Below are positions 1 to 47,935 of a stretch of 64,000 nucleotides of DNA, one piece after another. The position numbers were made by a program, and so were the translations under genes. The notes beneath the pieces are model-generated. The model worked only from the letters and a program-made list of their open reading frames with translations. It searched no databases and was not told the origin of the DNA. The stretch's first letter is position 1. Each line of letters begins with the position of its first letter. The stretch lies in contig JBNRSN020000002.1 of NCBI GenBank assembly GCA_051313645.2, positions 342,984,001 to 343,048,000 on the forward strand. The letters run 5' to 3'. The stretch comes from Centroscyllium fabricii (lineage: Eukaryota).

Positions 1-2581
1 GTATAGGGATAAACATGGACAGGCTTGAATGGTATAGGGATAAACATGGACAGGATTGAATGGTATAGGGATAAACATGGATAGGATTGAATGGTATAGG
101 GATAAGCATGGACAGGATTGAATGTTATAGGGATAAACATGGACAGGATTGAATGGTATAGGGATAAACATGGACAGGATTGAATGGTATAGGGATACGC
201 ATGGACAGGATTGAATGTTATAGGGATAAACATGGACAGGATTGAATGGTATAGGGATAAACATGGACAGGATTGAATGGTATAGGGATAAACATGGACA
301 GGGTTGAATGGTATAGGGATAAACATGGATAGGATTGAATGGTATAGGGATAAACATGGACAGGACTGAATGGTATAGGGATAAACATGGTCAGGATTGA
401 ATGTTATAGGGATAAACATGGACAGGATTGAATGTTATAGGGATAAACATGGCCAGGATGGAATAGTATAGGGGTACACATGGACAGGATTGAATGGTAT
501 AGGGATAAACATGAACAGGATTGAATGTTATAGGGATAAACATGGACAGGATTGAATGGTATAGGGATAAACATGGACAGGATTGAATGGTATAGGGATA
601 AACATGGACAGGATTGAATGTTATAGGGATAAACATGGACAGGATTGAATGGTATAGGGATAAACATGGACAGGATTGAATGGTATAGGGATAAACATGG
701 ATAGGATTGAATGGTATAGGGATAAACATGGTCACGATTGAATGGTATAGGGATAAACATGATCAGGATTGAATAGTATAGGGATAAACACGGGTAGGAT
801 TGAATAGTATAGGGATAAACATGGTCAGGATTGAATGGTATAGGGATAAACAGGGCCAGGATTGAATGGTATAGGGATAAACATGGACAGGATTGAATGT
901 TATAGAGATAAACATGGACAGGATTGAATGTTATAGGGATAAACATTGACAGGATTGAATGGCATAGGGATAAACATGGACAGCATTGAATGGTATAGGG
1001 ATAAACATGGACAGGATTGAATAGTATAGGGATAAACATGGACAGGAATGAATGGTATAGGGATAGACATGGACAGGATTGAATAGTATAGGGATAGACA
1101 TGGACAGGATTGAATGGTATTGGGATAAACATGGACAGGATTGAATGGTATTGGGATAAACATGGACAGGATTGAATGTTATAGGGATAAACATTGACAG
1201 GATTGAATGGCATAGGGATAAACATGGACAGCATTGAATGGTATAGCGATAAACATGGACAGGATTGAATAGTATAGGGATAAACATGGACAGGAATGAA
1301 TGGTATAGGGATAAACAGGGCCAGGATTGAATGGTATAGGGATAAGCATAGTCAGGATTGAATAGTATAGGGATAAACAGGGCCAGGATTGAATGGTATA
1401 GGGATAAACATAGTCAGGATTGAATAGTATAGAGATAAACATGGACAGGGTTGAATGGTATAGGGATAAACATAGTCAGAATTGAATAGTATAGGGATAA
1501 ACATGGACAGGAATGAATGGTATAGGGATAAACACAGGTAGGATTGAATACTATAGGGATAAACATGATCAGGATTGAATAGCATAGGGATAAACATGGA
1601 CAGGATTGAATGGTATAGGGATAAACACAGGTAGGATTGAATACTATAGGGATAAACATGGGCAGGATTGAATAGTATAGGGATAAACATGGACAGTATT
1701 GAATTGTATAGGGATAAACATGGACAGGATTGAATGGTATTGGGATAAACATGGACAGGATTGAATGGTATCGGGATAAACACGGGTAGGATTCAGTGGC
1801 GTAGGGATAAACATGGTCAGGTTTGAATGGTATGGGGATAAACATGGACACGATTGAATAGTATAGGGATAAACATGGACAGGATTGAATGGTATAGGGA
1901 TAAACATGGACAGGATTGAATGGTATAGGGATAAACATGGACAGGATTGAATGGTATAGGGATAAACATGGACAGGATTGAATGGTTTCGGGATAAACAT
2001 TTACAGGATTGAATGGTATAGGGATAAACACGGGTACGATTCAGTGGCGTAGGGATAAACATGGTCAGGTTTGAATGGTATGGGGATAAACATGGACACG
2101 ATTGAATAGTATAGGGATAAACATGGACAGGATTGAATGGTATAGGGATAAACATGGACAGGATTGAATGGTATAGGGATAAACATGGACAGGATTGAAT
2201 GGTATAGGGATAAACATGGACAGGATTGAATGGTATCGGGATAAACATGGACAGGATTGAATGGTATAGGGATAAACATGGACAGGATTGAATGGTATAG
2301 GGATAAACATGGACAGGATTGAATGGTATAGGGATAAACATGGACAGGATTGAATGGTATAGGGATAAACATGGACAGGATTGAATGGTATAGGGATAAA
2401 CATGGACAGGATTGAATGGTATAGGGATAAACATGGACAGGTTTGAATGGTATAGGGATAAACGGACAGGATTGAATGGTATAGAGATAAACACGGGTAG
2501 GATTCAGTGGCGTAGCGATAAACATGGTCAGGATTGAATGTTATTGGGATAAACACGGGTAGGGTTCAGTGGTGTAGGGAT
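1..2581. repeat. 31-bp tandem satellite/minisatellite, about 83 units, continuing off the left edge
   Basis: Consensus unit GTATAGGGATAAACATGGACAGGATTGAATG repeated head-to-tail with point variants; it degenerates near 2550-2581. Confidence 0.97.
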
Positions 2582-3160
2582 GGGCAAAGACTGAGATAAA
2601 TAAGTATTTCATGGGACACAATGGTTTCTATGGTACTTTTCTTGGGAATAGATGATTTGTGGATGGCAGCGCATTTATGGATTAGATGGATATATTATGG
2701 AGTTTCACTTAATTATCTTTGATGATCAGAGGGTATTTGTGGAGAAATTTCACTCGGGATTAAATAGATTGGGTGGATTTACATGGTTTGTGGGAGGAAC
2801 AAGCTTGATGAACCAACTGCGCATTTCTCTTTCATGTTTAAGTACATTTCTTGTACTCTTGCATCTGCTAAATATTTTAAACCAGTTTCCAGGGTCTGAT
2901 TAATTTTACTGTTTTATCAAATGATCCTTTTTTTAAATTGCCTGTGATATTATTTTGAGACTACTATGCTCCTAAATATGGCCATAAAACGTGATGAGGA
3001 ATTGCAGATAGATTTTGGTGAAATCATTACTTAAATATTACTATGTTTGAAATCTTCCTGGACCAAATGTTTTCCTACATGTGCAATAAAAAATGGATTC
3101 CTCCAGTTTACTCTTGCCACATACTCCAAGACAGTAGTGCAAAGAAGTTATCCATTAGGG

Positions 3161-4864: not shown

Positions 4865-7800
4865 TGTGGTGAACCATTTAGTGTAGTTCACACTGTTATT
4901 ATTGTATATAGTTTGTGTTAATAAAGTTGTTCCTTTCTGTAAGCACCTGGACCAGCTGACCCCACCTCCGGGTATGAGTATAAAGGAGGATGCTCCGCCC
5001 ACCTGACTCTCATTCCGGGCAGGACTCATCGCGGACCAGGTCTTGTTCTTAGCGAATAAAAGCCTTTGATTACGATCCACGAAAGACTGGCGTGATTGAT
5101 TAGCACATCAATTTTATTCGCTAAGATTTACAATGGGTGATGAGCCAGGACAGAGCCAACAGCCAGCTGCACCAGACACCTGGAGATCGATCCTCAAGCC
5201 GAAGACTCTCGACCTCAATCCCCAGGCACCGAACGCTTCGAACGATTTCAAACACTGGCTGAGCTGCTTCGAGTCATTTCTGGTGGTGGCCGGAGTCAGC
5301 GTTACGCACAGAAGACGGGTCCTAGTCTCCTGCGTCAGTGGCAGGCTCTTTGCAATCATCAAGAACGCCACTGACTATGATGCAGCGTTGGAGCTGCTGA
5401 GGGCTCGGTACCTCCAGCCTGTCAACGCCGTCTACGCTCGCCATCTACTCGCCACGCGGAGGCAACAGCCTGGTGAGTCGAACGAGGAGTACCTGGAGGC
5501 TCTACAGGCTCTCGCTCCACGCTGCGAATGTGCACCCGTTAACGCCCAGGAGCACATGGACCTCCTCGTCCGCGATGCCTACGTGGCAGGAATCCGATCG
5601 GCCCCAGCGCGCACCCGCCTGCTCGAGCAGGATGATTTGTCCCTGAACCAGGCGGTGAAGCTTTCCAATGCGGTGGATGGGGCCCTCCGCAGCCTGGGTT
5701 CGTACACGGGGCACGGCTCCCACACGGTTTCCCCAGGGCCTTGTGACTCACGTTTAACGCCCTCGACGGCAACCGTGGCGGCCACGGCGCCATCCGGACA
5801 GCCAGCACCCCTGAAATGCCATTTTTGTGGCCAAAAACGCCACCCACGAAGCTCCTGCCCAGCGAAGTCGGCATCCTGCTCCAGGTGTGGCAAGAAGGGC
5901 CACTTTGCGAAGGTCTGCCGATCGGCCCCGGAATCTACAAATAAAACAGCAGCAGCCTGCCATCTCTACGCCACAGAGTGGCCTCAGGTACCTGGCGCCC
6001 CCCAACAGTTTTTTTCTAAACAACTTTTACCTACCTTGCCTCGGGTGCGGCCTGCCAGCGCCATTTCCAGCGTTCTGCCGTCTTCCTCCATCGCTGAAAC
6101 GTGGTCGCCGTCGCCATCTTTGGGGGGCGTGGCCTTCTTCATGCCTGGAACTCGAACGGGTGGCAGAGGCCCCGCCCCATCACGTGACGCCGCCGTCTCC
6201 CCGCGTCACGTCAGCAGCGGTCCCCCCCATCACGTGCCGAGGACCGAACGGGCGGCAGAGGCCCCGCCCCATCACGGGACGCCACCATCGAAACGCGTCA
6301 CAGCATCAGCGGTCCCGCCCCATCCCGTGACGACGCCATCTTGGTGCAGGACGGCCTGCATACCTACAGCGGAGGGCCCGACGCCATCTTTGTACAGGAA
6401 GATTTTTAAAGCACCGGCTGCTGCAGCAACTAGTAACTTTAAATCTACCTCAGTGGTTCCTGCAGCTGCAACAGACTACTCCAGACCACTTCAGCATTCG
6501 GGTGCTGCTGCTGCGCCACGAGCCCTTCGGTCTTCCCGACGGCATTCTGGGAGACTCACCCACCGGTCCGAAACAACACCGCGGCCCGCCGCGTGCGAAT
6601 CACGGACGCCGCCACCAGCCGCGGACCCTGCATCGCACAAGGGCCCCAGCGCGCACACCACACTTGCCTCTACGGCCCTGAACCCGGCTCTTGCTTTAGC
6701 TACGATGACCACCCGGGTGGAGGGGCACCTCACCTGCTGTCTGTTCGACACTGGGAGTACAGAGAGCTTTATACACCCTGATACAGTGCGCCGTTATTCC
6801 CTCAGGGTTAGGCCCACGCATCGTAAAATCTCCCTCGCCTCCGAGTCCCAGACTGTGGACGTCATCGGCTGCTGTTCAGTCACCATTACCGTGAAGGGGA
6901 CGACATACCGCAATTTTCCACTGTACGTCCTCCCACAGCTCTGTGCCCCTGTGTTGCTTGGCCTGGATTTCCAGTGCCATCTGCAGAGCTTAACGATGGC
7001 GTACGGTGGTCCCCTGCCTCCTCTCATGGTCAGCAGCCATGACTGCCCTGCCTCACAACCACACTCCTCTTGCGGTCTGTCTACCTTGAAGATAGACCCC
7101 CCCTCGCTGTTCGCCAACCTTGACCCTGACTGCAAGCCCATTGCAACCAAGAGTCGGCGATACAGCGCGGGGGACCGCAACTTTATTAAGGCAGAGGTTG
7201 CCCGGTTGTTGCGGGAGGGCATCATCGAGACCAGTAACAGCCCGTGGCGGGCCCAGGTGGTAGGGGTTAAGTCGGGCAACAAGCAGCGCATGGTCATTGA
7301 CTATAGTCAGACCATTAACCGCTACACTGGGCTCGACGCTTATCCGCTTCCTAGGATAAATGATATGGTCAACCAGATTGCCCAGTATAAGGTCTTCTCC
7401 ACCATCGACCTTAAGTCGGCCTATCACCAGCTCCCCATCAGAGCTGAGGACCGTAAATACACTGCCTTTGAGGCAAATGGGCGCCTTTTTCACTTCCTCC
7501 GGGTCCCCTTTGGGGTTACCAATGGAGTTTCGGTCTTCCAACGGGAGATGGACCGAATGGTTGACCAGTACCATTTGCAAGCCACATTCCCGTATTTGGA
7601 CAATGTCACGATCTGCGGCCATGATCAGCAAGATCACAATGCCAATTTGGACAGGTTTCTCCGTACGGCCCAGCGTCTGAACCTCACTTACAATGAGGAT
7701 AAGTGTGTTTTCAACACTAACCGGTTGGCTATCCTCGGCTACGTAATTGAGAACGGGGTCCTCGGTCCTGATCCCGAACGTATGCGCCCCCTTCAGGAGC

Positions 7801-9975: not shown

Positions 9976-12900
9976 TGTGGGGAACGGTAGTTTCCCACTC
10001 TGTAAATACTAAGAAACGGAGGAAAACAACGGAGCAAATTCAAACAAGTCTTTATTCAACTCTATCCACGCAGAACTAACTAGAAAACGGCGCGAAAACG
10101 CAAAGCATCGTGGGGCTCTTGAGTGACAGCCCTCCGGACCATTCAGGGACTGTAACCATTGATCTAACTTATCCAATGGGGAAACGGGGGCGGGACCACT
10201 CGGGAAATGTGGATTCTGTGTCCTAGAGAGACCGGATTGTCTCTCTTAAGTGACTACGCTACACACGGCCCCCCTGAATCCTCATACACATGGTACGTCA
10301 ACCTCCGAGGAGACATGATAAGGCGGCCGTAATGAGTGCGATAGGCCACCAGTGCAGGAGGGGACACTGGGGAGCCGTGGACAGGACTGGGAGATAGCGG
10401 CGCTGCAGGAGCAGGAGGAGGCGAGGCTGGAGGCGAAACAAGAACCGGAGCTGTACCTGGGGCATAAAGACTGTGGGACCCGCCGGGGGTACGCTCGGGA
10501 AAAGGAAGCTCTCCTGGCGCGGGGCCAGGGAAAGCTGTTCCTGTGAGGTGGGGTCCAAGTGGGCCAGTTTAAGACGGTCGATAGACACGCGGTCCTGTCG
10601 GCCTCCAACCTCAAGGAGAAAAGACTTGTCGCCAGCCTCCAGCACCCTGAAAGGGCCAATGTATGGCACCTGCAAGGGGGTTTTATGGGCGTCACGACAC
10701 ACAAAGACAAATTGAGCCCGACGGAGCTCAGTAGGTATGTGGGACGACCGGGCACCATGCCGAGAGGTGGGCACAGGGAGGAAACGATGCGCAGCGTCGT
10801 TGTGCCGGGCGAGTTGCTTGCCGGCCGACCAAGGGTCGGTGGTGGAGGGAAGGAACTCTCCTGGAACACGCAAAGGCTGTCCAAAAACGAGTTCAGCGGA
10901 CGAAACGCCGAGGTCGTCCTTGGGCGCAGATTGCAATCTCAGCAAGACCCAAGGGAGCCTGTCTAACCAATTGGCGTCAACCAGGCTAGCTCGGAGTGAA
11001 GCCTTAAGGGCGCAGTGGAAGCGTTCGCAAATGCCTTTCGCCTGCGGATGGTACACAGTTGTGCGGTGCACTTGCATACCCAGGCCAGTGGCAACTGCAC
11101 TCCAGAGCTGAGAGGTAAACTGCGGGCCTCTGTTGGAAGTGATGTCCGACGGTACCCCAAACCGGATCACCCAAGAAAAAATGAAGGCACGTGCTACGTC
11201 GGCTGCAGTGGTGGAAGAAAGAGGTACGACCTCTGGCCACCTAGTGGTGCGGTCCACGACGTTAAGGAGATGGGTGAAACCCTGCGATGGGGCAATGGGC
11301 CCACCAGGTCAACATGGACATGATCAAAGCGCGCTCGGGCACCGGAAAATTTTGCAAGGGAGCTTTGGTATGCTGATGGACCTTGGTGCATTGACAGTCC
11401 TGGCAGGTGTTGGTCCTGTTCCGCACATCCTTATGCAGACCCGGCCTAACAAATTTGGCAGACATGAGCTTCTGAGAAGCCTGCATTCCCGGGTGTGAGA
11501 GTCCATGGACCAACTCGAAAATGCGCCTGCGCCAGGAGGTAGGCACCAAGGACCTAGGGGTGGAGACGGACACGTCACACAAAAGGGTCGTGCCGGCGGC
11601 GTGAAAATGGACGTCCGCTAGAGTCAGGCTGGTGGACGCAGCACGAAGAGCCTGTAGCTCAGTGTCCGCTCACTGGGCGCGTGCCATTTCAGCGTAATCA
11701 ACACCAAAGTGGACTGCATTGAGGGAAGGACGGGAGAGACAGTCCGCAACGACGTTATCTTTACCGGACACGTGGCGAATATCCATCGTAAATTCTGAAA
11801 TAAAATTCAGGTGGCGCTGTTGGCGACCTGACCAAGGCTCTGTGACTTTGGACATAGCAAAAATGAGGGGCTTATGGTCCACGTAGGCCGTAAAAGGATG
11901 GCCCTCTAAAAGAAAACGAAAATGCCGCACTGCAAGGAAAAGAGCTAGCAGTTTTCGATCGAACGTGCTATACGAGAGCTCATTTTTCCGCAGTGGGCGG
12001 CTAAAAAAGCGAGGGGCTGCCAGGCACTGTCAACCCACTGCTGCTGAACGGCGCCAATGGCATGATCCGAGGGATCCGTCATGAGCGGCAGTGGAGCATC
12101 CGGAATGGGGTGGGTCAAAAAGGTGGCTTCAGCCAAGGCCGACTTAGCAAGACGAAAAGCCTCAACCATATCGGCCGACCACTGAAGACTATCCTTGCCG
12201 GTCTTGCCCCTGGTAGCTTCGTACAGGGGGCACATGATGGAGGCCGCCTTGGGAATAAATCGGTGATAAAAATTAACCATTCCCAGGAATTCCTGGAGTG
12301 ACTTAACCGAGTTAGGCTGGGGAAAGTCCACGACCGCCTGCACCTTAGAGCGCAAAGGGATAGCTCCCGCCGGGGAGATGTGATGCCCTAGAAAATCAAT
12401 TTCAGGGTGGCCGAATTGGCATTTACTTGGGTTAACAATTAGGCCGTGATGGGCCAATCTCTGAAAGAGAGAGCGCAGGTGCACTAAATGTTGAGATTCA
12501 TCAGCGCTAGCAACCAAAATATCATCAAGATATACAAACAAAAAGTCCAACTCCCGAAGGACAGAGTCCATCAACCGTTGGAAAACCTGTGCCACATTCT
12601 TTAACCCGAAGGGCATGTGTAGGAATTCGAAAAGTCCAAATGGTGGAACAACGGCTGTCTTTTGGACCAGGACCTGGTGATTCCCTCGGACGAGGTCGAC
12701 TTTCGAAAAAATGGTAGTGCCCACCAAATGGGCTGGAAAGTCTTGAATATGTGGCACCGGGTATCTGTCCGGCGTGATGGTGTCGTTGAGGCGCCGGTAG
12801 TCACCACACGGTCGCCAGCTGCCTCCGGGCTTGGTGATGGTGTGGAGTGGGGATGACCACGGGCTGTTGGAAGGTCGAATGATCCCCAACTTCTCCATGG

Positions 12901-14485
12901 CCGAGAATTCCTGTTTGGCCACTGCCATCTTTGTAGGGTCGAGGCGTCTGGCTCGAGCGAAGACCAGTAGTGGCGATGTGATGTTGAACGCCGTGTTTGG
13001 CCGTCCCATCGGAAAAGGTCGGTTGCATGATGGTCGGGAATTCGGCCAGCAGGCACGCGTACTTGTCGCCCGAAGGAGGAGAGCAGGGGCTTACGAGGGG
13101 TTGGCCATCACTTCACTGGCAGGGAAATGAGGCGAAGGTAGATGCATCCATCAGGCGTCTGCCCTGGACGCCCACGAGCAGCCCATGGGCACACAGGAAA
13201 TCTGTGCCCAGCAATGGATGTGCTATATTGGCCGTGACAAAATCGCAGGTAAACCGTTGGTCACCCAGTCGAATTTCCACCCGCCTCTTATCGAACGTGG
13301 CTATTGCTGCGCCATTCACTGCCATGAGGGGTGGGCCACTGTGGCCTGACTGTCGATCGGAGCGCATGGCCGGTAAGATGCTGAGCTGGGCCCCTGTGTC
13401 GCAGAGGAATTGTTGCCCAGACAGAGAGCCTGTAACATACAGCAACTGACCTGCTGTGCCCATGGCGTTAGCGGCGGCTGGTCCTTGGCGGTGATGCTGG
13501 CTCGGAGCATTGGGTTTGGGTTGGGCCGCCTTGCTGTCGAATGAACAAGGTGGTCGGCAGCGGTGGGCCTTCGGGCCGAAACGTGCATGGTAATACCAAA
13601 GCTCCGGCTGTGGTCGAGGCGTTGGTTGCTGCGTACGAGCTGGGGGCCTCGTGGTTGCGCACTTGAAGGGTGTACACAGGCAGACACGGTCCGCGGCATA
13701 GTCCCCGCCTTTAATGTTCGCTAACGTAGATTGCACCGGCTGCGGGAGCAGGTAGATGAAAAGTGCCCGGAACAAAGGGCAGTCCTTGTGGTCGCCAAGC
13801 AGGGTGAGCATGCGGTTCATCAAGCGTGTGGGCGTGGAATCACTTAAAACCGGGAGTTCAAGAAGTTGCTGGGCCCGCACGGTCTCCGGTAGGTCGTGGG
13901 CCTGAAGCAGTCGCTTCTTGATGGCAGCGTACCGGTCAGCTGGCGGCGGGTCCTGAAGCAGGTCGACGATGTCAGCGCCAATGTGGCTTGGCTGGGCCGC
14001 AACGACGAGGAGATAGCGGTCCTCATCGTGAGTGATGCATTTTAATCAAAACTGTTCCTCCATTTGAATGAACCAAGCGGCTGCTTGGTGCTCCTAAAAG
14101 GCAGGGAGACTAGTAGTCGATGGCCGTTCGCATTGCCCGGCCTCGGGGTGCGCGTTCCGGTCAGCGTTTTCTTCGTCTGACATTCGGGGTCACCAATTGT
14201 GGGGAACGGTAGTTTCCCACTCTTTAAATACTAAGAAATGGAGGAAAACAGCGGAGCAAATTCAAACAAGTCTTTATTCAACTCTATCCACGCAGAACTA
14301 ACTAGAAAACGGCGTGAAAACGCAAAGCATCGTGGGGCTCTTGAGTGACAGCCGTCCGGTCCAGTCAGGGACCGTAACCGTTGATCTAACTTATCCAATG
14401 GGGAAACAGGGGCGGGACCACTCGGGAAATGTGGATTCTGTGTCCTAGAGAGACCGGATTGTCTCTCTTAAGTGGCTACGCTTCA
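9976..14485 (-). mobile_element. Degenerate full-length Ty3/Gypsy LTR retrotransposon of the CsRn1 clade
   Basis: 288-bp LTRs at 9976-10263 and 14198-14485 (about 12 differences); TSD ATAC/ATAT; tRNA-Trp-type PBS TGGTGACCCCGA (plus 14184-14195); gag CHCC-type motif YYHARFGPKAHRCRPPC; protease LCDTGA; RT YLDD; integrase with GPF motif; several frameshifts. Confidence 0.93.
10298..14150 (-). pseudogene. Frameshifted gag-pol of the CsRn1-like element
   Basis: Fragments in different frames: gag/protease 13113-13880, RT 11945-13009, RNase H 11670-11930, integrase 10298-11582. Confidence 0.88.
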
Positions 14486-14832
14486 ATATTATGTAAATTT
14501 GCCTAAGCCTTGAAACTTTAGTGGGGTTAGGCTGTTTCTTGGTCAGCAGAAGCAAATCACACTCTACCATTTTTCTACACAGGTTTTTTCCTATGCAGCA
14601 ATTTTAGGATAAAGTGCTCAACTAACGGTAGATTTAATATCTGTTATGTTTTGAGTGGTTTTCTTGGCTTCAGTAGATGTTCCATAGCACTATTCACAAG
14701 ATGACATTGAAAATATTTGTAACCATACATGTATAAAAGTTTAGAGGATAAGTACAGAGTCTGGTATTAAAGCTGAATTAAAACTCAAAAATTCCTTAAA
14801 AAAAAGTCATTTTTATTTTCTTTCTCCCTTAG

Positions 14833-15153
14833 CACGGAAGTCTAAGAAACTGGGAAAGGTGAAAGGGCTGCATGAAGAGCAGCAACCACCTCACAGCCCA
14901 AAGGAAGGGATCACGTTCACTGCTCCTTTACCGGAACCCACAGCAAGCACCGCCCTTGTTCCTCATTTCTCACTTATGCCACAACGCATTAACCCATCCC
15001 TGATCACTATTCTCGAAGCCATTGAACCTGAAGTCGTTTATGCAGCTTATGACATCAGTCAGGCAGACACAACTAATCACTTGCTGTCCAGTTTGAACAG
15101 GCTGGCAGAGAAACAGATGATTCGAATAGTGAAGTGGGCCAAAGGTCTTCCAG
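14833..15153 (+). CDS. nr3c2: Mineralocorticoid receptor coding exon (hinge plus LBD helices 1-3; corresponds to human exon 5)
   Basis: Pyrimidine tract and AG at 14831-14832; GT donor at 15154. Translates [26 protein letters not shown]...[15 protein letters not shown]...[25 protein letters not shown]. The ARKSKKLGK...HEEQ hinge matches MR rather than GR, PR or AR. 321 nt. Confidence 0.93.
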
Positions 15154-15329
15154 GTAGGATGACATGGAAACATTTATCTTTCACTTCTGTAGCACGTCCG
15201 TGCATTTTCTTATCTTCTGCATGTGTGCTAGTGCTTATGTTTTTAATGATAGGGTTGCAATTTCTCCCCTATACCGTGTTACCTTTCCAAAACAAAAGAC
15301 TCTGACTAATAGCTGCTACATATGTTTAG

Positions 15330-42992: not shown

Positions 42993-43036
42993 GAAAGTAT
43001 TAAAGTCTCTGCCATTTCCTTATTCCCCATTATAAG

Positions 43037-46000
43037 TGTGACCGAAATAACGACCTCGTGGATGAGTAGTTATAAGGGTGAAACAATACGGCTTTTATTC
43101 ACTAAATGGTGGACATGCACCAGGTAGTCGACCGTCCCCAGGAATGGCCGGGGGATGGGAGACGGCCGCTTATATACCTCCTCCTGGGGGGGGAGGAGTC
43201 GCGGGCGGAGCCAGCCTGGGCATGTCCAGGTAATCTTACAACAGGTTATATATAAAAATGGATATAAGCATGATTACAGAGATACATCATAGGGTGGGTA
43301 TATACAATGGAAACAGTGGTTTACCACATTCACCCCTTCTTTAAAACAAAAGTCCGGCGGGGTGAACGCGACAGTTCTTTTAAATTTACAAATTAAGTCG
43401 CTCCGGCGGCCTGGTGATCCTGGTTGAGCGTCGCACCGCTGGTGGTGTCCGCGGTCGTGGAGTGGCCGGCCGAGTTGGTTGCATTGATGGTGCTGATGCT
43501 GGTTGGCGAGCGGTGATTGACAGCGTCGATTGGTTTCTGGGTGGTGGTGCCCTTGTAGTGACAGTAGGAGGCGCGCTCTCTCCCTCGTCATCTGACTCTA
43601 GGGGGCGTGCACTGTGGAGCCATGCTGGAGGCCATGCCATGCTGCTCGCAGGTGCCGGGTAGACGTACTGCGGTGCCGGGTCCTCGTGTCGGGGAGCGTA
43701 CCTTGGCGCCGGTGGCTGGGGTGGCGTGGCTGGCCGCGGTGGCCCGGGCGGAGTGGCTGGCCGTCTTGGGTGCGCGGGCTGCTGGGCGGGGCGTCTTGGG
43801 TGCGCAGGCTGCTGGGCGGGGCTGGGTTTGGGGACTCCCGCTGGTGCCAGGTCCTTGATTGACACGGTGTCCTCCCTCCCGTCGGGGTACGCCACGTAGG
43901 TGTACTGGGGATTGGCGTGCAGGAGGTGGACCCGTTCGACCAGGGGATCTGCCTTGTGGCCCCTCATGTGCTTCCGTAGTAGGACTGGTCCCGGGGATAG
44001 CAGCCACGATGGTAGCGAGGTCCCGGAAGCTGACTTCCTGGGGAAGGCAAAAAGTCGTTCGTGAGGGGTGGCATTAGTGGCCGTACACAGGAGCGCTTCA
44101 GGGAGGACGTCCTGCCAGCGGGTGACTGGGAGGCCCTTAGACCTTAGGGCTAACAGGATGGCCTTCCAGACAGTGGCGTTCTCCCTCTCTACCTGTCCAT
44201 TCCCCCGGGGGTTGTAGCTGGTAGTCCTGCTAGTCGCGATGCCTTTGGCTAGCAGAAACTGACGCAGCTCGTCACTCATAAAGGACGCCCCCCGGTCACT
44301 ATGGATATAGCTGGGATAGCCGAACAGAGAGAAGATGCTGTGGAGGGCTTTGATGACCGTGGCGGAGGTCATGTCCGGGCAGGGGATGGCAAAGGGGAAG
44401 CGGGAGTACTCGTCTATTACGTTGAGGAAGTACACATTCCTGTTGGAGGAGGGAAGGGGTCCTTTGAAATCGACGCTGAGTCGTTCAAAGGGGCGAGTGG
44501 CCTTAATCAAATGCGCCCGGTCTGGCCGATAGAAGTGCGGCTTGCACTCCGCACAGACCTGGCAATTGCTGGTCAGGGTCTTGACCTCTTCGATGGAGTA
44601 GGGGAGGTTGCGGGACTTCACAAAGTGAACCAACCTGGTGACCCCCGGGTGGCAGAGGTCATTGTGTAAGGTTTGGAGGCGGTCTGTCTGTGCGCTGGCA
44701 CAGGTACCGCGGGATAGGGCGTCTGGGGGTTCGTTAAATTTCCCGGGCCGGTACAAGATATCGTAGTTGAACGCGGAGAGTTCAATTTTCCACCTTAATA
44801 TCTTGTCGTTCTTTATTTTACCCCGCTCTTTGTTGTTGAACATAAAAGCGACTGATCGTTGGTCAGTCAGCAGGGTAAAACGCTTGCCGGCCAGGTAGTG
44901 CTTCCAGTGACGCACTGCTTCAACGATGGCTTGGGCCTCCTTCTCGACTGAGGAGTGACGGGTCTCGAGGCCCTGGAGGGTACGCGAGAAGAAGGCCACG
45001 GGTCTGCCCGCCTGGTTAAGCGTGGCGGCCAGGGCAAAGTCCGATGCATCGCTCTCTACTTGGAATGGGACAGATTCGTCCACAGCGTGCATCGTAGCCT
45101 TCGCGATGTCGTCTTTAATGCTGCAGAACGCCGTGCGGGTATCTGCTGACAGGGGGAATGAGGTGGATTTAAGCAGTGGGCGAGCTTTGTCCGCGTAATT
45201 GGGGGTCCACTGGGCATAATAGGCAAAGAACCCCAAGCACCGTTTAAGGGCCTTGGGGGAGTGGGGGAGGGGGAGCTCCAGGAGGGGACGCATGCGGTCC
45301 GGGTCGGGACCGATGACCCCATTCTCCACAACACTGCCGAGGATGGCAAGGCGGGTGGTACTGAACACACATTTTTCGGTGTTGTACGTCAGATTGAGTG
45401 TTTTGGCGGTGTGGAGAAATTTCTGGAGGTTGGCGTAATGGTCCTGCTGATCATGGCCGCAGATGGTTACATTATCGAGGTACGGGAAAGTGGCTCGCAG
45501 CCCGTACTGATCGACTATTCGGTCCATCTCCCTTTGGAAGACCGAGACCCCATTCGTGACGCCAAACGGGACCCTGAGGAAGTGGTAGAGGTGGCCGTCA
45601 GCCTCAAAGGCAGTATAGAGACGGTCCTCTGGGCGAATGGGAAGCTGGTGATATGCGGACTTCAGATCTATGGTGGAGAATACCCTGAACTGCGCGATCT
45701 GATTCACCATGTCCGCTATCCGGGGGAGGGGGTATGCGTCTAGCTGGGTGAACCGATTGATGGTCTGACTGTAGTCTACTACCATCCGGTTCTTCGCTCC
45801 GGTTTTTACTACCACTACCTGCGCCCTCCAGGGGCTATTACTGGCCTCGATAACCCCCTCCTTCAGGAGGCGCTGCACCTCGGACTTGATAAAGTCCATG
45901 TCCCCAGCACTGTAGCGCCTACTCTTGGTGGCGACGGGCTTGCAGTCTGGGGTGAGGTTGGCAAAGAGCGAGGGAGGGGCGACCTTAAGGGTCGAGAGGC

Positions 46001-47697
46001 CACAGGTAGCGCGCCGGGGGTGCTGCGCTGAGCACCGGTTGCTGCCCCTGAGCGAGGGAAGGGGCCCACCGTACGCCATGGTAACGCTTTGGAGATGGCA
46101 CTGGAAGTCCAGACCCAATAGTAATGGAGCGCAGAGCTGCGGCAGCACGAAAAAGCTAAAATTATTAAAGTGCACGCCCTGCACCGTTAGAGCCACTGCG
46201 CAACGCCCAGAGACGTCCGCAGATTCAGATTTAGAAGCCATTGAAATTCTTTGGCTCGCTGGCATAACCTTAAGGGAGAGGCGCTTTACTGTCTCAGGAT
46301 GAACAAAACTCACCGTGCTCCCACTGTCGAAAAGGCACACCACGTCCTGTCCGTTCACTCCCACCGGCATCATCGATTTCCCGAGCGATTGGGCCTTGTT
46401 CTGGTCCAGAGTCACCGATGCCAGTATTGGGTCAGGGGATTCCTCTTGATCCGAAGAGTAGTCCTCCGGGGCCGGTTCCCAAGATGGCTGCCGCCATGCG
46501 GTGTACTGCGGAGGGGGTGGCTGGGTCCAATATGGCGACTGCTGCCACGAGGGGTACCGAGTGGGGGATGGTTGAGTCCAATATGGCTGCTCCCATGTTC
46601 CACACGCGGCGCTGCCCGGTTTCGGTTTAGGGGCTGATGTGGTCGCCTTACAGACTTTGGCATAATGTCCCTTTTTCCCACATTTTGAGCAGGCCGCTTC
46701 TCTTGCCGGGCAGCTACGTCTCGGATGCTGAGACTGCCCGCAGAAGTAACATTTTGCCGTCTTCGCGTGAGCGGCTGCGATCATTTCTTCCGCCGGCCGT
46801 TGCGCCGGCGCTGTCCAAGATGGCGGGGCTGGGCCCGTATAATTGCCGGAATATGACGAAAGATTTATTGAGGCCACGTCCAGCACATTGCCCAGATCCG
46901 TTGTTGCCTGCAGGTCAAGGCCGTTCTGCTCTAACAGCCTCTGTCTGATATAGTCCGACCTGAGGCCTGTAACGTATGCATCTCTAATGGGACTGTCCAC
47001 ATGGAGCTGGGCCGATAGCGCTCTGCATTCGCAGGCCCGTGAGAGCACTCGCAGCGCTCTTAAAAGTTCCACGCTGGACTCACCGGGTTGCTGCTTCCTG
47101 GTGGCTAGGATGTGTCTGGCATGGACGATATTGGGTGCCCGGTTGTACTCTGCCTTGAGGATCCTGATAGCATCCAAAAATGATGATGCGTCCACGATCA
47201 TGGAGTACACCTGAGGGCCCACCCGGGCGTTGAGGAGCCACCGTTTGTCCTCTTCGGTCCTGACGACCGCTGCGTTCGCTCTCAGGTACGCATCGAAAAC
47301 ATCATACCAGTGCGAGAATGTGTTTGATGCGCCTGGTGTCCGGGGATCCAGTTCAAACGTTGCTGGCTTAGCATCGCTTCCATCTTCAAAATTTAGTGAA
47401 TAAAATTGTGACCGAAATAACGACCTCGTGGACGAGTAGTTATAAGGGTGAAACAATACGGTTTTTATTCACTAAATGGTGGACATGCACCAGGTAGTCG
47501 ACCGTCCCCAGGAATGGCCGGGGGATGGGAGACGGCCGCTTATATACCTCCTCCTGGGAGGGAGGAGTCGCGGGCGGAGCCAGCCTGGGCATGTCCAGGT
47601 AATCTTACAACAGGTTATATACAAACATGGATATAAGCATGATTACAGAGATACATCATAGGGTGGGTATATAGAATGGAAACAGTGGTTTACCACA
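43037..47697 (-). mobile_element. Full-length Ty3/Gypsy LTR retrotransposon (element B, same lineage as element A)
   Basis: LTRs 43037-43328 and 47407-47697 (about 6 substitutions and 1 indel); TSD ATAAG; PPT AAGAAGGGGTGAA. Confidence 0.97.
43386..47383 (-). CDS. Gag-Pol polyprotein of Gypsy element B (1-nt deletion just after the probable ATG)
   Basis: Two CCHC knuckles, LFDSGS, YLDN, ESDAS, HHCC and DDE integrase, RRSTR tail. The likely start ATG at 47383 (MEAML) is out of frame with KPATFELDP by one base. Confidence 0.88.
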
Positions 47698-47935
47698 ATA
47701 AGTTCGCCTGTCTCAGCCTCTAATGGATCGATGCTTACTTTTGCTACTCTTTTTACATACTTGTAGAAGCTTTTACAATCTGTTTTTAAATTTCTCGCTA
47801 GTTTACTCTCATTTTATTTTCTCCCTTTTTATCAATTTTTTGGTTATCCTTTGCTGGTTTCTAAAGCTCTCCCAATCCTCAGGCTTACTACGATTCTTTG
47901 CAACATTACAAGCCTCTTCTTATCATCTAATACTA

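What the first reader, a model, noticed from the sequence alone, without database searches (positions are those of the whole stretch)
47391..47477. The same hairpin in Gypsy element B carries three compensatory substitutions
Seen on the minus strand: LTR arm ATTTAGTGAATAAAA (47477-47463) and, one nucleotide after the LTR end, TTTTATTCACTAAAT (47405-47391). Relative to element A the arm differs at positions 1, 2 and 7, and all three changes are mirrored in the partner arm, so the 15-bp stem stays perfect. The rest of the two LTRs shares little similarity. TATA-to-arm spacing is 69 nt (68 in element A). Inference: the pairing is either under selection or is regenerated at each replication round, as expected if the LTR arm is the primer that templates the PBS.
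Basis: seen in the sequence. Interest (0 to 1): 0.8.

Follow-up and report, generated by a model that had tools for sequence, protein, structure and literature searches.

The report
Self-priming hairpin in shark jumping genes
A very abundant animal jumping-gene lineage appears to start copying itself from its own RNA instead of a host tRNA, but unlike the known yeast and fish cases its primer sits about 40 bases inside the transcript, on top of the poly(A) signal, and hundreds of botched copies in the genome record the process.

Summary
The stem is real (15/15 pairs; chance maximum 12 in 5000 shuffles). It marks a whole Gypsy clade. In 38 LTR clusters from this genome and from unnamed metagenome/MAG contigs, positions 1-13 hold 481 Watson-Crick pairs, 2 G-U and 11 mismatches, with 33 different arms; no tRNA site. 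New evidence: 454 genomic copies run on past the primer site into an inverted copy of the LTR. In B-like families 20 of 49 distinct run-ons end within 2 nt of the TATA+31 initiator; weaker in a second group. The transcript therefore starts about 40 nt before the arm, whereas sushi-type elements of the same genome put an 11-nt arm at the predicted start. Best reading: self-priming by a capped ~53-nt 5' fragment. The clade lacks a chromodomain and is not nested with vertebrate sushi (p-AU 0.002), but a sister position is not excluded. Cleavage is inferred; no RNA data. The scan noted a similar animal Gypsy hairpin elsewhere (e1-7805419).

The parts
47407..47697 (-). Element B 5' LTR (291 nt, TG...CA)
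   Evidence: 97% identical to the 3' LTR; 5-bp target duplication at 47698-47702 and 43032-43036
47539..47546 (-). TATA box
   Evidence: TATA-to-CATTC spacing is 30 nt in most families of this genome where both were called
47510..47516 (-). Initiator-like CATTCC; inferred transcript start at A 47515 (or C 47516)
   Evidence: run-on copies end here: 20 of 49 distinct junctions within 2 nt
47476..47515 (-). About 40-nt leader between the inferred cap and the arm core
   Evidence: copied in run-on elements; no folding above chance
47463..47477 (-). LTR arm (self-primer candidate); conserved core 47475-47463; contains AATAAA; inferred cut after 47463
47406..47462 (-). Loop: rest of R and U5, LTR end, one spacer A; template of minus strong-stop DNA under the model
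   Evidence: inference
47391..47405 (-). Partner at the PBS position (core 47405-47393)
43386..47383 (-). Single gag-pol region (PR-RT-RNase H-IN, no chromodomain); the ATG at 47383 is not in frame with the long open frame in this copy
43329..43342 (-). Polypurine tract
   Evidence: shared with element A; the tract-plus-LTR-start pattern has 108,467 matches in G000
43037..43328 (-). Element B 3' LTR (carries the arm but no partner)
4865..5126 (+). Element A 5' LTR (4865-5110), TATA 4979, initiator 5011-5016, arm 5047-5061, partner 5112-5126

Best explanation
[quoted passage not shown] RNA starts at a TATA/initiator promoter about 40 nt upstream of the arm (supported by genomic fossils, not by RNA). 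The 13-nt arm core pairs with the site one base past the LTR end (shown as covarying complementarity). The RNA is cut after the arm's terminal A run, probably by the element's RT/RNase H as in Tf1 (inferred), so the primer is the capped ~53-nt 5' fragment, paired only by its last 13 nt. RT copies U5 and the rest of R and transfers to the 3' R. Plus-strand synthesis later copies the primer and normally gives a ~13-nt overhang for the second transfer. How it is limited to 13 nt is unknown; my guess is RNase H removal or trimming, since Ty3 RT has a ~13-bp polymerase-to-RNase H distance. When the limit fails, RT runs to the cap and jumps into gag-pol, or the plus strong-stop DNA folds back on its own arm; both products are found integrated. 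Because the arm usually holds the poly(A) hexamer and the partner exists only at the 5' end, the same stem probably also masks premature 5' polyadenylation (untested second role, about even odds). Odds: self-priming by the arm sequence in any form about 0.9; this specific version about 0.68.
For: 28 of 31 fetched elements with a perfect target duplication have a perfect LTR complement of 10-15 nt within 5 nt of the LTR end; 3'-flank controls give 4-8 (sample picked by the polypurine pattern, blind to the stem). 38 clusters: 481 WC, 2 G-U, 11 mismatches at positions 1-13; 330/342 pairs at positions 5-13 against mean 201, maximum 233 when partners are swapped. 10 of 10 family-B copies changed at arm position 8 or 9 carry the mirrored base (at least two events). 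L063 shows a mirrored change among near-identical copies. Run-on patterns: 81, 272, 101 matches, reversed controls 0. B-like ends: 20 of 49 within 2 nt of the initiator A, conservative p 6e-10; 17 of 24 such copies resume in the element's own sense gag-pol; 6 of 6 distinct +1 ends are followed by a C, as from copying a cap (L008 is an exception; suggestive only). Palindromic LTR-PBS-inverted-U3 mini-elements have 5-bp target duplications, 4 perfect and 2 at 4/5 of 6 checkable. Controls in the same genome: chromodomain elements have an 11-bp stem ending 40 nt after TATA (5 of 7 with TATA called); the window's third Gypsy element has a TGG tRNA-type site.
Against: No RNA evidence and no cleavage data. 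Initiator-ended run-ons map a capped 5' end but could also arise if plus strong-stop DNA annealed to the arm of an uncut RNA. 3 run-on loci (L224, L260, L295) continue past the LTR start into the polypurine tract or beyond, so other templates were used. In the second family group only 3 of 32 automated ends fell in the window (p 0.31); re-read by eye, 5 of 15 distinct partial ends did (p 0.064) and 24 of 40 ran through U3. The start site is unmapped for the metagenome members. No stable leader hairpin (median z 0.1) and no Tf1-like flanking duplexes were found, so the 13-nt limit is unexplained. The register was chosen on positions 1-10 and the permutation ignores relatedness. The G-U comparison (54 of 438 in loops) uses predicted folds. 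11 of 42 metagenome/MAG loci were dropped for lacking the junction motif, three with no stem found.
Confidence: 0.68

Rival explanations
1. Self-priming by the 3' copy of the arm (RNA ends brought together, or in trans). The 3' R is trimmed or cut back to the duplex and primes at the PBS; strong-stop DNA then runs to the cap and uses the 40-nt leader as transfer homology.
For: The arm lies in R at both RNA ends. It gives the long leader a purpose. L224, L260 and L295 carry inverted copies that continue into the polypurine tract or 3' internal region. Run-through-U3 copies are common.
Against: The commonest partial end in B-like families is the initiator (20 of 49), which a 3' primer does not predict without a second annealing step. 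Copies ending exactly at the LTR start with target duplications are simply explained by fold-back of plus strong-stop DNA.
Confidence: 0.13
2. Tf1 geometry after all: a second start site at the arm makes the replicating RNA, with a 13-nt 5' primer; the upstream TATA transcript is only co-packaged.
For: Explains the sharp 13-14 nt edge directly. Positions 13-9 resemble an initiator (A at position 11 in 29/38; motif recalled). Tf2 is reported to switch start sites (PMC5341516, search listing only). No TATA was mapped for metagenome members, where this may be the true geometry.
Against: Positions 12 and 13 lie upstream of that A yet pair in 37/38 and 33/38 clusters with three or four pair types. 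No TATA was called about 30 nt before the arm in this genome's families. My run-on patterns cannot see ends shorter than about 23 nt, so this rival was not tested directly.
Confidence: 0.12
3. The stem only masks the 5' poly(A) signal; priming uses something else.
For: AATAAA or ATTAAA lies in the arm in 17/17 clusters of this genome and 13/21 others. Retroviruses must suppress the 5' site (PMC3694450, passages). The partner exists only at the 5' end.
Against: 8 of 21 metagenome clusters keep the stem without either hexamer, three with a hexamer in the loop. The partner occupies the whole PBS position with a fixed 1-nt offset. G-U is nearly absent. Run-on copies join the LTR end to a copy of the arm and leader.
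Confidence: 0.05
4. Chance or shared ancestry of an A/T-rich inverted repeat.
For: The stem is A/T-rich and folding z-scores are modest.
Against:: fixed position, 33 different arms, mirrored changes, shuffles never reach 15.
Confidence: 0.01

Closest known systems
Tf1/Tf2 of Schizosaccharomyces pombe and the Tf1/sushi chromovirus group
   Same: No tRNA; PBS just past the 5' LTR is complementary to the element's own LTR RNA; the primer must be made by a cut (PMC7175516, PMC4600332, bioRxiv 2022.12.06.519325; passages). Same 1-nt offset as the sushi-type elements of this genome. Tf1 cDNA keeps a copied PBS overhang that seeds odd insertions (PMC11042837, passages).
   Different: Tf1's primer is the first 11 nt of the RNA; here a 13-nt core lies about 40 nt inside and overlaps the poly(A) hexamer (in sushi-type elements that hexamer is ~340 nt downstream). 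No chromodomain or Tf2-type SH3 domain. About 30% RT-RNase H identity, long separate branch. No pretzel duplexes detected.
Predicted self-priming plant lineages Tcn1 (gypsy) and TAR/Houba (copia)
   Same: Predicted by the same criterion, at least 10 nt just past the LTR complementary to the LTR (PMC6317226, passages).
   Different: Plant elements; Tcn1 is a chromovirus, TAR a copia. The passages I read give no start-site or run-on evidence.
5' LTR poly(A) suppression in HIV-1, MoMLV and foamy viruses
   Same: Same problem: identical signals in both LTRs (PMC3694450, passages).
   Different: Those use U1/splice donors, weak sites or hairpins inside R; here the hexamer would be masked by the primer site itself.
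Named metazoan Gypsy clades Cigr-1, Tor2, MolGy1-16
   Same: Non-chromovirus animal clades listed in PMC6238403 (passages); this clade may well be one of them.
   Different: Could not be matched: no reference sequences were readable. That paper's main text has no occurrence of 'PBS' or 'primer'.

Membership tests
Ty3/Gypsy LTR retrotransposon | PR-RT-RNase H-IN order | tested here: met
   Pfam
Ty3/Gypsy LTR retrotransposon | TG...CA LTRs, polypurine tract, short target duplication | tested here: met
Tf1/sushi group | PBS complementary to own LTR, no tRNA site | tested here: met
Tf1/sushi group | Self-primer at the very 5' end of the RNA | tested here: not met
   for B-like families of this genome, by run-on ends and TATA/initiator spacing; indirect, no RNA; unknown for metagenome members
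Tf1/sushi group | Chromodomain on integrase | tested here: not met
   absent in 5 of 5 clade proteins scanned, present in control L208
Tf1/sushi group | RT-RNase H falls inside chromoviruses | tested here: not met
   both groups 100% supported apart; grouping with vertebrate chromoviruses rejected, p-AU 0.0017; proxies were chromodomain-type proteins of fish, frogs, this genome and fungi, not Tf1 or sushi themselves
Tf1/sushi group | Origin of self-priming separate from chromoviruses | tested here: inconclusive
   sister position neither shown nor rejected (35/4); unrooted, 5-6 other Gypsy rows only
Tf1/sushi group | Three-duplex pretzel | tested here: not met
   flanking helices no longer than shuffles; crude test
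Tf1/sushi group | RNase H-dependent cleavage makes the primer | not testable with these tools
   needs biochemistry
tRNA-primed Gypsy lineages | TGG-initiated site matching a tRNA 3' end next to the LTR | tested here: not met
   partner starts A-TTT in all 71 scored elements (selection criterion for 31 of them); window control has TGG; no tRNA library was scanned
Cigr-1 / Tor2 / MolGy clades; Repbase groups | RT similarity to the named reference elements | not testable with these tools

The most novel reading that the evidence does not exclude
A second, independently evolved self-priming system in Ty3/Gypsy, spread from cnidarians and nematodes to sharks. An internal 13-nt arm overlapping the poly(A) signal serves as primer after a cut that leaves a capped ~53-nt fragment, and the same stem silences the 5' poly(A) site. 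Its failed products map cap site and cut site directly from genomic DNA.
Probability: 0.3. Interest if true: 0.8.

Novelty: new variant of a known kind. Interest (0 to 1): 0.64.

Why it matters
In the papers I read, self-priming is experimentally shown only for Tf1 and is treated as the mark of the Tf1/sushi chromoviruses, plus predicted plant copia cases. A non-chromodomain clade with over 100,000 pattern matches in one 7.2-Gb genome, and relatives named from sharks, rays, a sea anemone and nematodes, appears to do it with a different geometry. That raises a concrete question: how is copying of a long primer limited without a modified tRNA base? The run-on copies also offer a general method: integrated mistakes reveal transcript start and primer boundaries without RNA data, and could be sought in any LTR family lacking a tRNA site.

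Tried and rejected
RNA evidence: no RNA holder listed; contigs laid on the LTR gave no starts or ends. Poly(A)-tailed retrocopies to map the R/U5 border: 0 matches. Leader hairpin as the stop for plus-strand copying: median z 0.12 in 15 leaders, rejected. Pretzel-type flanking duplexes: no excess over shuffles. A small hairpin right after the cut site: 14 of 21 metagenome clusters against 6.7 expected, only 5 of 17 here against 3.0, so not claimed as general. Rfam: 0 matches. Viral contigs: no relatives. Clade name: motif searches in supplements of two papers found nothing; FASTA supplements and some PDFs were unreadable. ESM Atlas gave only generic Gypsy pol clusters. Literature: 10 full-text searches listed no paper on self-priming in a non-chromodomain animal Gypsy clade; the library lacks most subscription journals and Repbase Reports. 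I recall, unverified, a Repbase label for self-primed Gypsy groups ('Self'/'Selfy'); one search found 0 papers and one search did not show it. A planned recombination-linkage test between 5'-arm and 3'-arm models was not run. The slight excess of partner-only mismatches (10 against 2 and 3) is partly indel artefact and was not used.

Full report
OBSERVATION. On the minus strand the arm (47477-47463) and partner (47405-47391) form 15 perfect pairs, the partner starting one A after the LTR's terminal CA. Shuffled LTRs reach at most 12 pairs and random window sequence 11, in 5000 trials each. Folding z-scores are modest, -1.7 and -2.6. The polyprotein has the Gypsy order PR-RT-RNase H-IN and no chromodomain. 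Its best database relatives named by their sources are from sharks and rays (76-82% over the pol region), then a sea anemone and Trichuris/Trichinella nematodes (about 60%). I infer a cartilaginous-fish host; the assembly is 7.2 Gb.

THE STEM MARKS A CLADE. A pattern for the polypurine tract and LTR start, blind to the stem, has 108,467 matches in the genome. I fetched 60 of the 100 listed places. 18 had no 5' LTR in range. Of the 31 with a perfect target duplication, 28 carry a perfect 10-15-nt LTR complement within 5 nt of the LTR end, against 4-8 nt for the 3' flank control. I dropped 4 false or rearranged pairs and kept 38 plus A and B. From metagenome and MAG contigs (87 loci), 42 reached the gag start; 31 had the CA-A-TTT junction and were scored, and 11 were dropped. 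Of those 11, three show 11-13-bp stems, three 8-10 bp, two look degenerate by eye, and three show none. The 71 elements fall into 38 clusters on arm-free flanks. Positions 1-13 from the cut end hold 481 Watson-Crick pairs, 2 G-U and 11 mismatches, with 33 different arms; position 14 pairs in 25/38 and position 15 in 14/38. Swapping partners among clusters gives mean 201, maximum 233 pairs at positions 5-13 against 330 of 342 observed; this test ignores relatedness, and the register was fitted on positions 1-10. Among near-identical copies the changes are mirrored too: 10 of 10 family-B copies altered at position 8 or 9 (22 of 30 loci scorable; at least two events), and L063 against four sisters. 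G-U pairs make up 54 of 438 predicted pairs in the loops but 2 of 483 in the stem; loop folds are predictions, so this is supporting, not decisive. A host RNA cannot track 33 arms, and no TGG site exists; the window's third Gypsy element has one.

WHERE THE RNA STARTS. In this genome's families a CATTC-type initiator lies 30 nt after TATA in most cases where both were called, and 50-61 nt before the arm end. [quoted passage not shown] The same rule puts this clade's arm about 40 nt inside the RNA.

MOLECULAR FOSSILS. L008 has a whole 5' LTR, the partner, then an inverted copy of the LTR from the arm end back to the initiator (54 nt), a jump by 5-nt microhomology into integrase, a whole 3' LTR and a target duplication. 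Patterns for such run-ons gave 81, 272 and 101 matches, reversed controls 0. I examined the first 30, 30 and 40. In B-like families, after removing 9 loci with no initiator called and 2 duplicates, 20 of 49 junctions end within 2 nt of the initiator A (17 at 0 or +1), 11 end earlier, 6 inside U3 and 12 run to about the LTR start (p 6e-10 counting only ends up to the initiator). 17 of 24 initiator-length copies resume in the element's own sense gag-pol (one of the 24 is misclassed by length). All 6 distinct +1 ends are followed by C where the DNA has G, as expected if RT copies a cap (cap-directed C addition is recalled knowledge; L008 differs; 4 of 11 at position 0). The second group is weaker: 3 of 32 by the automated call (p 0.31). 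Re-read by eye against reference LTRs, 24 of 40 run through U3, and 5 of 15 distinct partial ends lie at 0 to +2 (p 0.064), with none deeper in U3. Full run-throughs form palindromic mini-elements with target duplications (4 perfect, 2 at 4/5, of 6 checkable), as expected if plus strong-stop DNA ends in the arm's complement and folds back. Three loci continue beyond the LTR start into the polypurine tract or 3' internal sequence.

MECHANISM. Shown: complementarity, covariation, fixed offset, absence of a tRNA site, and DNA junctions in which the LTR end continues into a copy of arm and leader, often ending at the initiator. Inferred: the arm's 3' end primes minus-strand synthesis after a cut; the primer is the capped ~53-nt fragment; normal copying stops or is trimmed near 13 nt. 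Ty3 RT's polymerase and RNase H sites are about 13 bp apart (PMC5371799, passages), which suggests that the primer is released once 13 nt are copied; this is my speculation. A leader hairpin as the stop is not supported, nor are pretzel duplexes. The fossils fix the start site better than the primer's identity, because plus strong-stop DNA could anneal to an uncut RNA. So priming from the 3' arm (0.13) and a second start at the arm (0.12) stay open. Whether the PBS is rewritten every round is also open: in Ty1/Ty3 it is not (PMC5371799, passages), while Tf1 cDNA does carry a copied PBS (PMC11042837, passages). The arm holds AATAAA or ATTAAA in 17/17 clusters here and 13/21 elsewhere; 8 clusters keep the stem without it. 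Masking of the 5' poly(A) signal is thus a plausible second role, not the primary one.

RELATION TO KNOWN SYSTEMS. It works like Tf1/sushi self-priming (PMC7175516, PMC4600332, bioRxiv 2022.12.06.519325, PMC6317226; passages) but fails membership. There is no chromodomain in 5 of 5 proteins, RT-RNase H identity to chromoviruses is about 30%, and Ty3 RT scores 173 bits against 298 for the sushi-type control. The clade forms its own long branch (100/100), and grouping with vertebrate chromoviruses is rejected (p-AU 0.0017). A sister position to all chromoviruses is neither shown nor rejected (35/4). The trees are unrooted, use proxies instead of Tf1 and sushi, and hold only 5-6 other Gypsy rows, so an independent origin is unproven. 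The clade may be one of the named groups in PMC6238403 (passages); unreadable FASTA and image supplements may bear on this. Ten searches listed no description of this system, but Repbase and most subscription journals were not searchable, and I have an unverified memory of a Repbase label for self-primed Gypsy groups. Other papers seen: PMC3601003, PMC6934838, PMC3694450, PMC13524379, PMC2836005 (passages); PMC8556966 (supplement list and supplement search); PMC5341516 (listing only). The scan has a similar note on another animal genome (e1-7805419), which I could not check and which may be the same clade.

VERDICT. A real, clade-wide feature; a new variant of a known kind. Self-priming is very likely. 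The internal, poly(A)-overlapping primer and the run-on record are the new parts. Interest 0.64.

Noticed in passing
L226, L227, L231, L241, L249, L265 (G000): About 540-bp palindromic mini-elements (LTR, primer site, inverted R-U3) with 5-bp target duplications; probably integrated fold-back products of plus strong-stop DNA.
   Followed up: partly
G000: The polypurine-tract/LTR-start pattern of this clade has 108,467 matches (reversed control 0). At about 5 kb per full copy this could be several percent of the genome; 18 of 60 fetched had no 5' LTR in range.
   Followed up: partly
L208-L214 (G000): Young chromodomain (sushi-type) families with 11-bp self-primer stems that covary between families, arm starting 29-30 nt after TATA.
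   Followed up: partly
window 9976-14485 (-): Third, decayed Gypsy element with 288-nt LTRs and a TGG-type primer site; RT motif and site resemble the CsRN1 clade with tRNA-Trp (labels recalled, not tested).
   Followed up: partly
window 14745-15305 (+): Open frame containing what looks like an exon of a steroid-receptor ligand-binding domain (recalled resemblance, not searched); the elements probably lie in its introns.
   Followed up: no
window 1-2600: 31-bp tandem satellite, about 75 or more copies at 92-96% identity.
   Followed up: no
L286, L291 (G000): Two run-on copies stop inside the leader and resume in the sense LTR at the initiator motif; microhomology, or a minus DNA ending at the cap, could explain it.
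   Followed up: no
G000:C335:139983543-139984706: Four run-on junctions spaced 378 bp apart: a tandem array built from an aberrant product.
   Followed up: no
L110-L117: Bacterial MAG contigs in the GTDB set carry elements of this animal-type clade, most likely host contamination.
   Followed up: no
L074:138-246: A second copy of the partner sequence lies inside the U5 loop, and this stem is only 11 bp.
   Followed up: no
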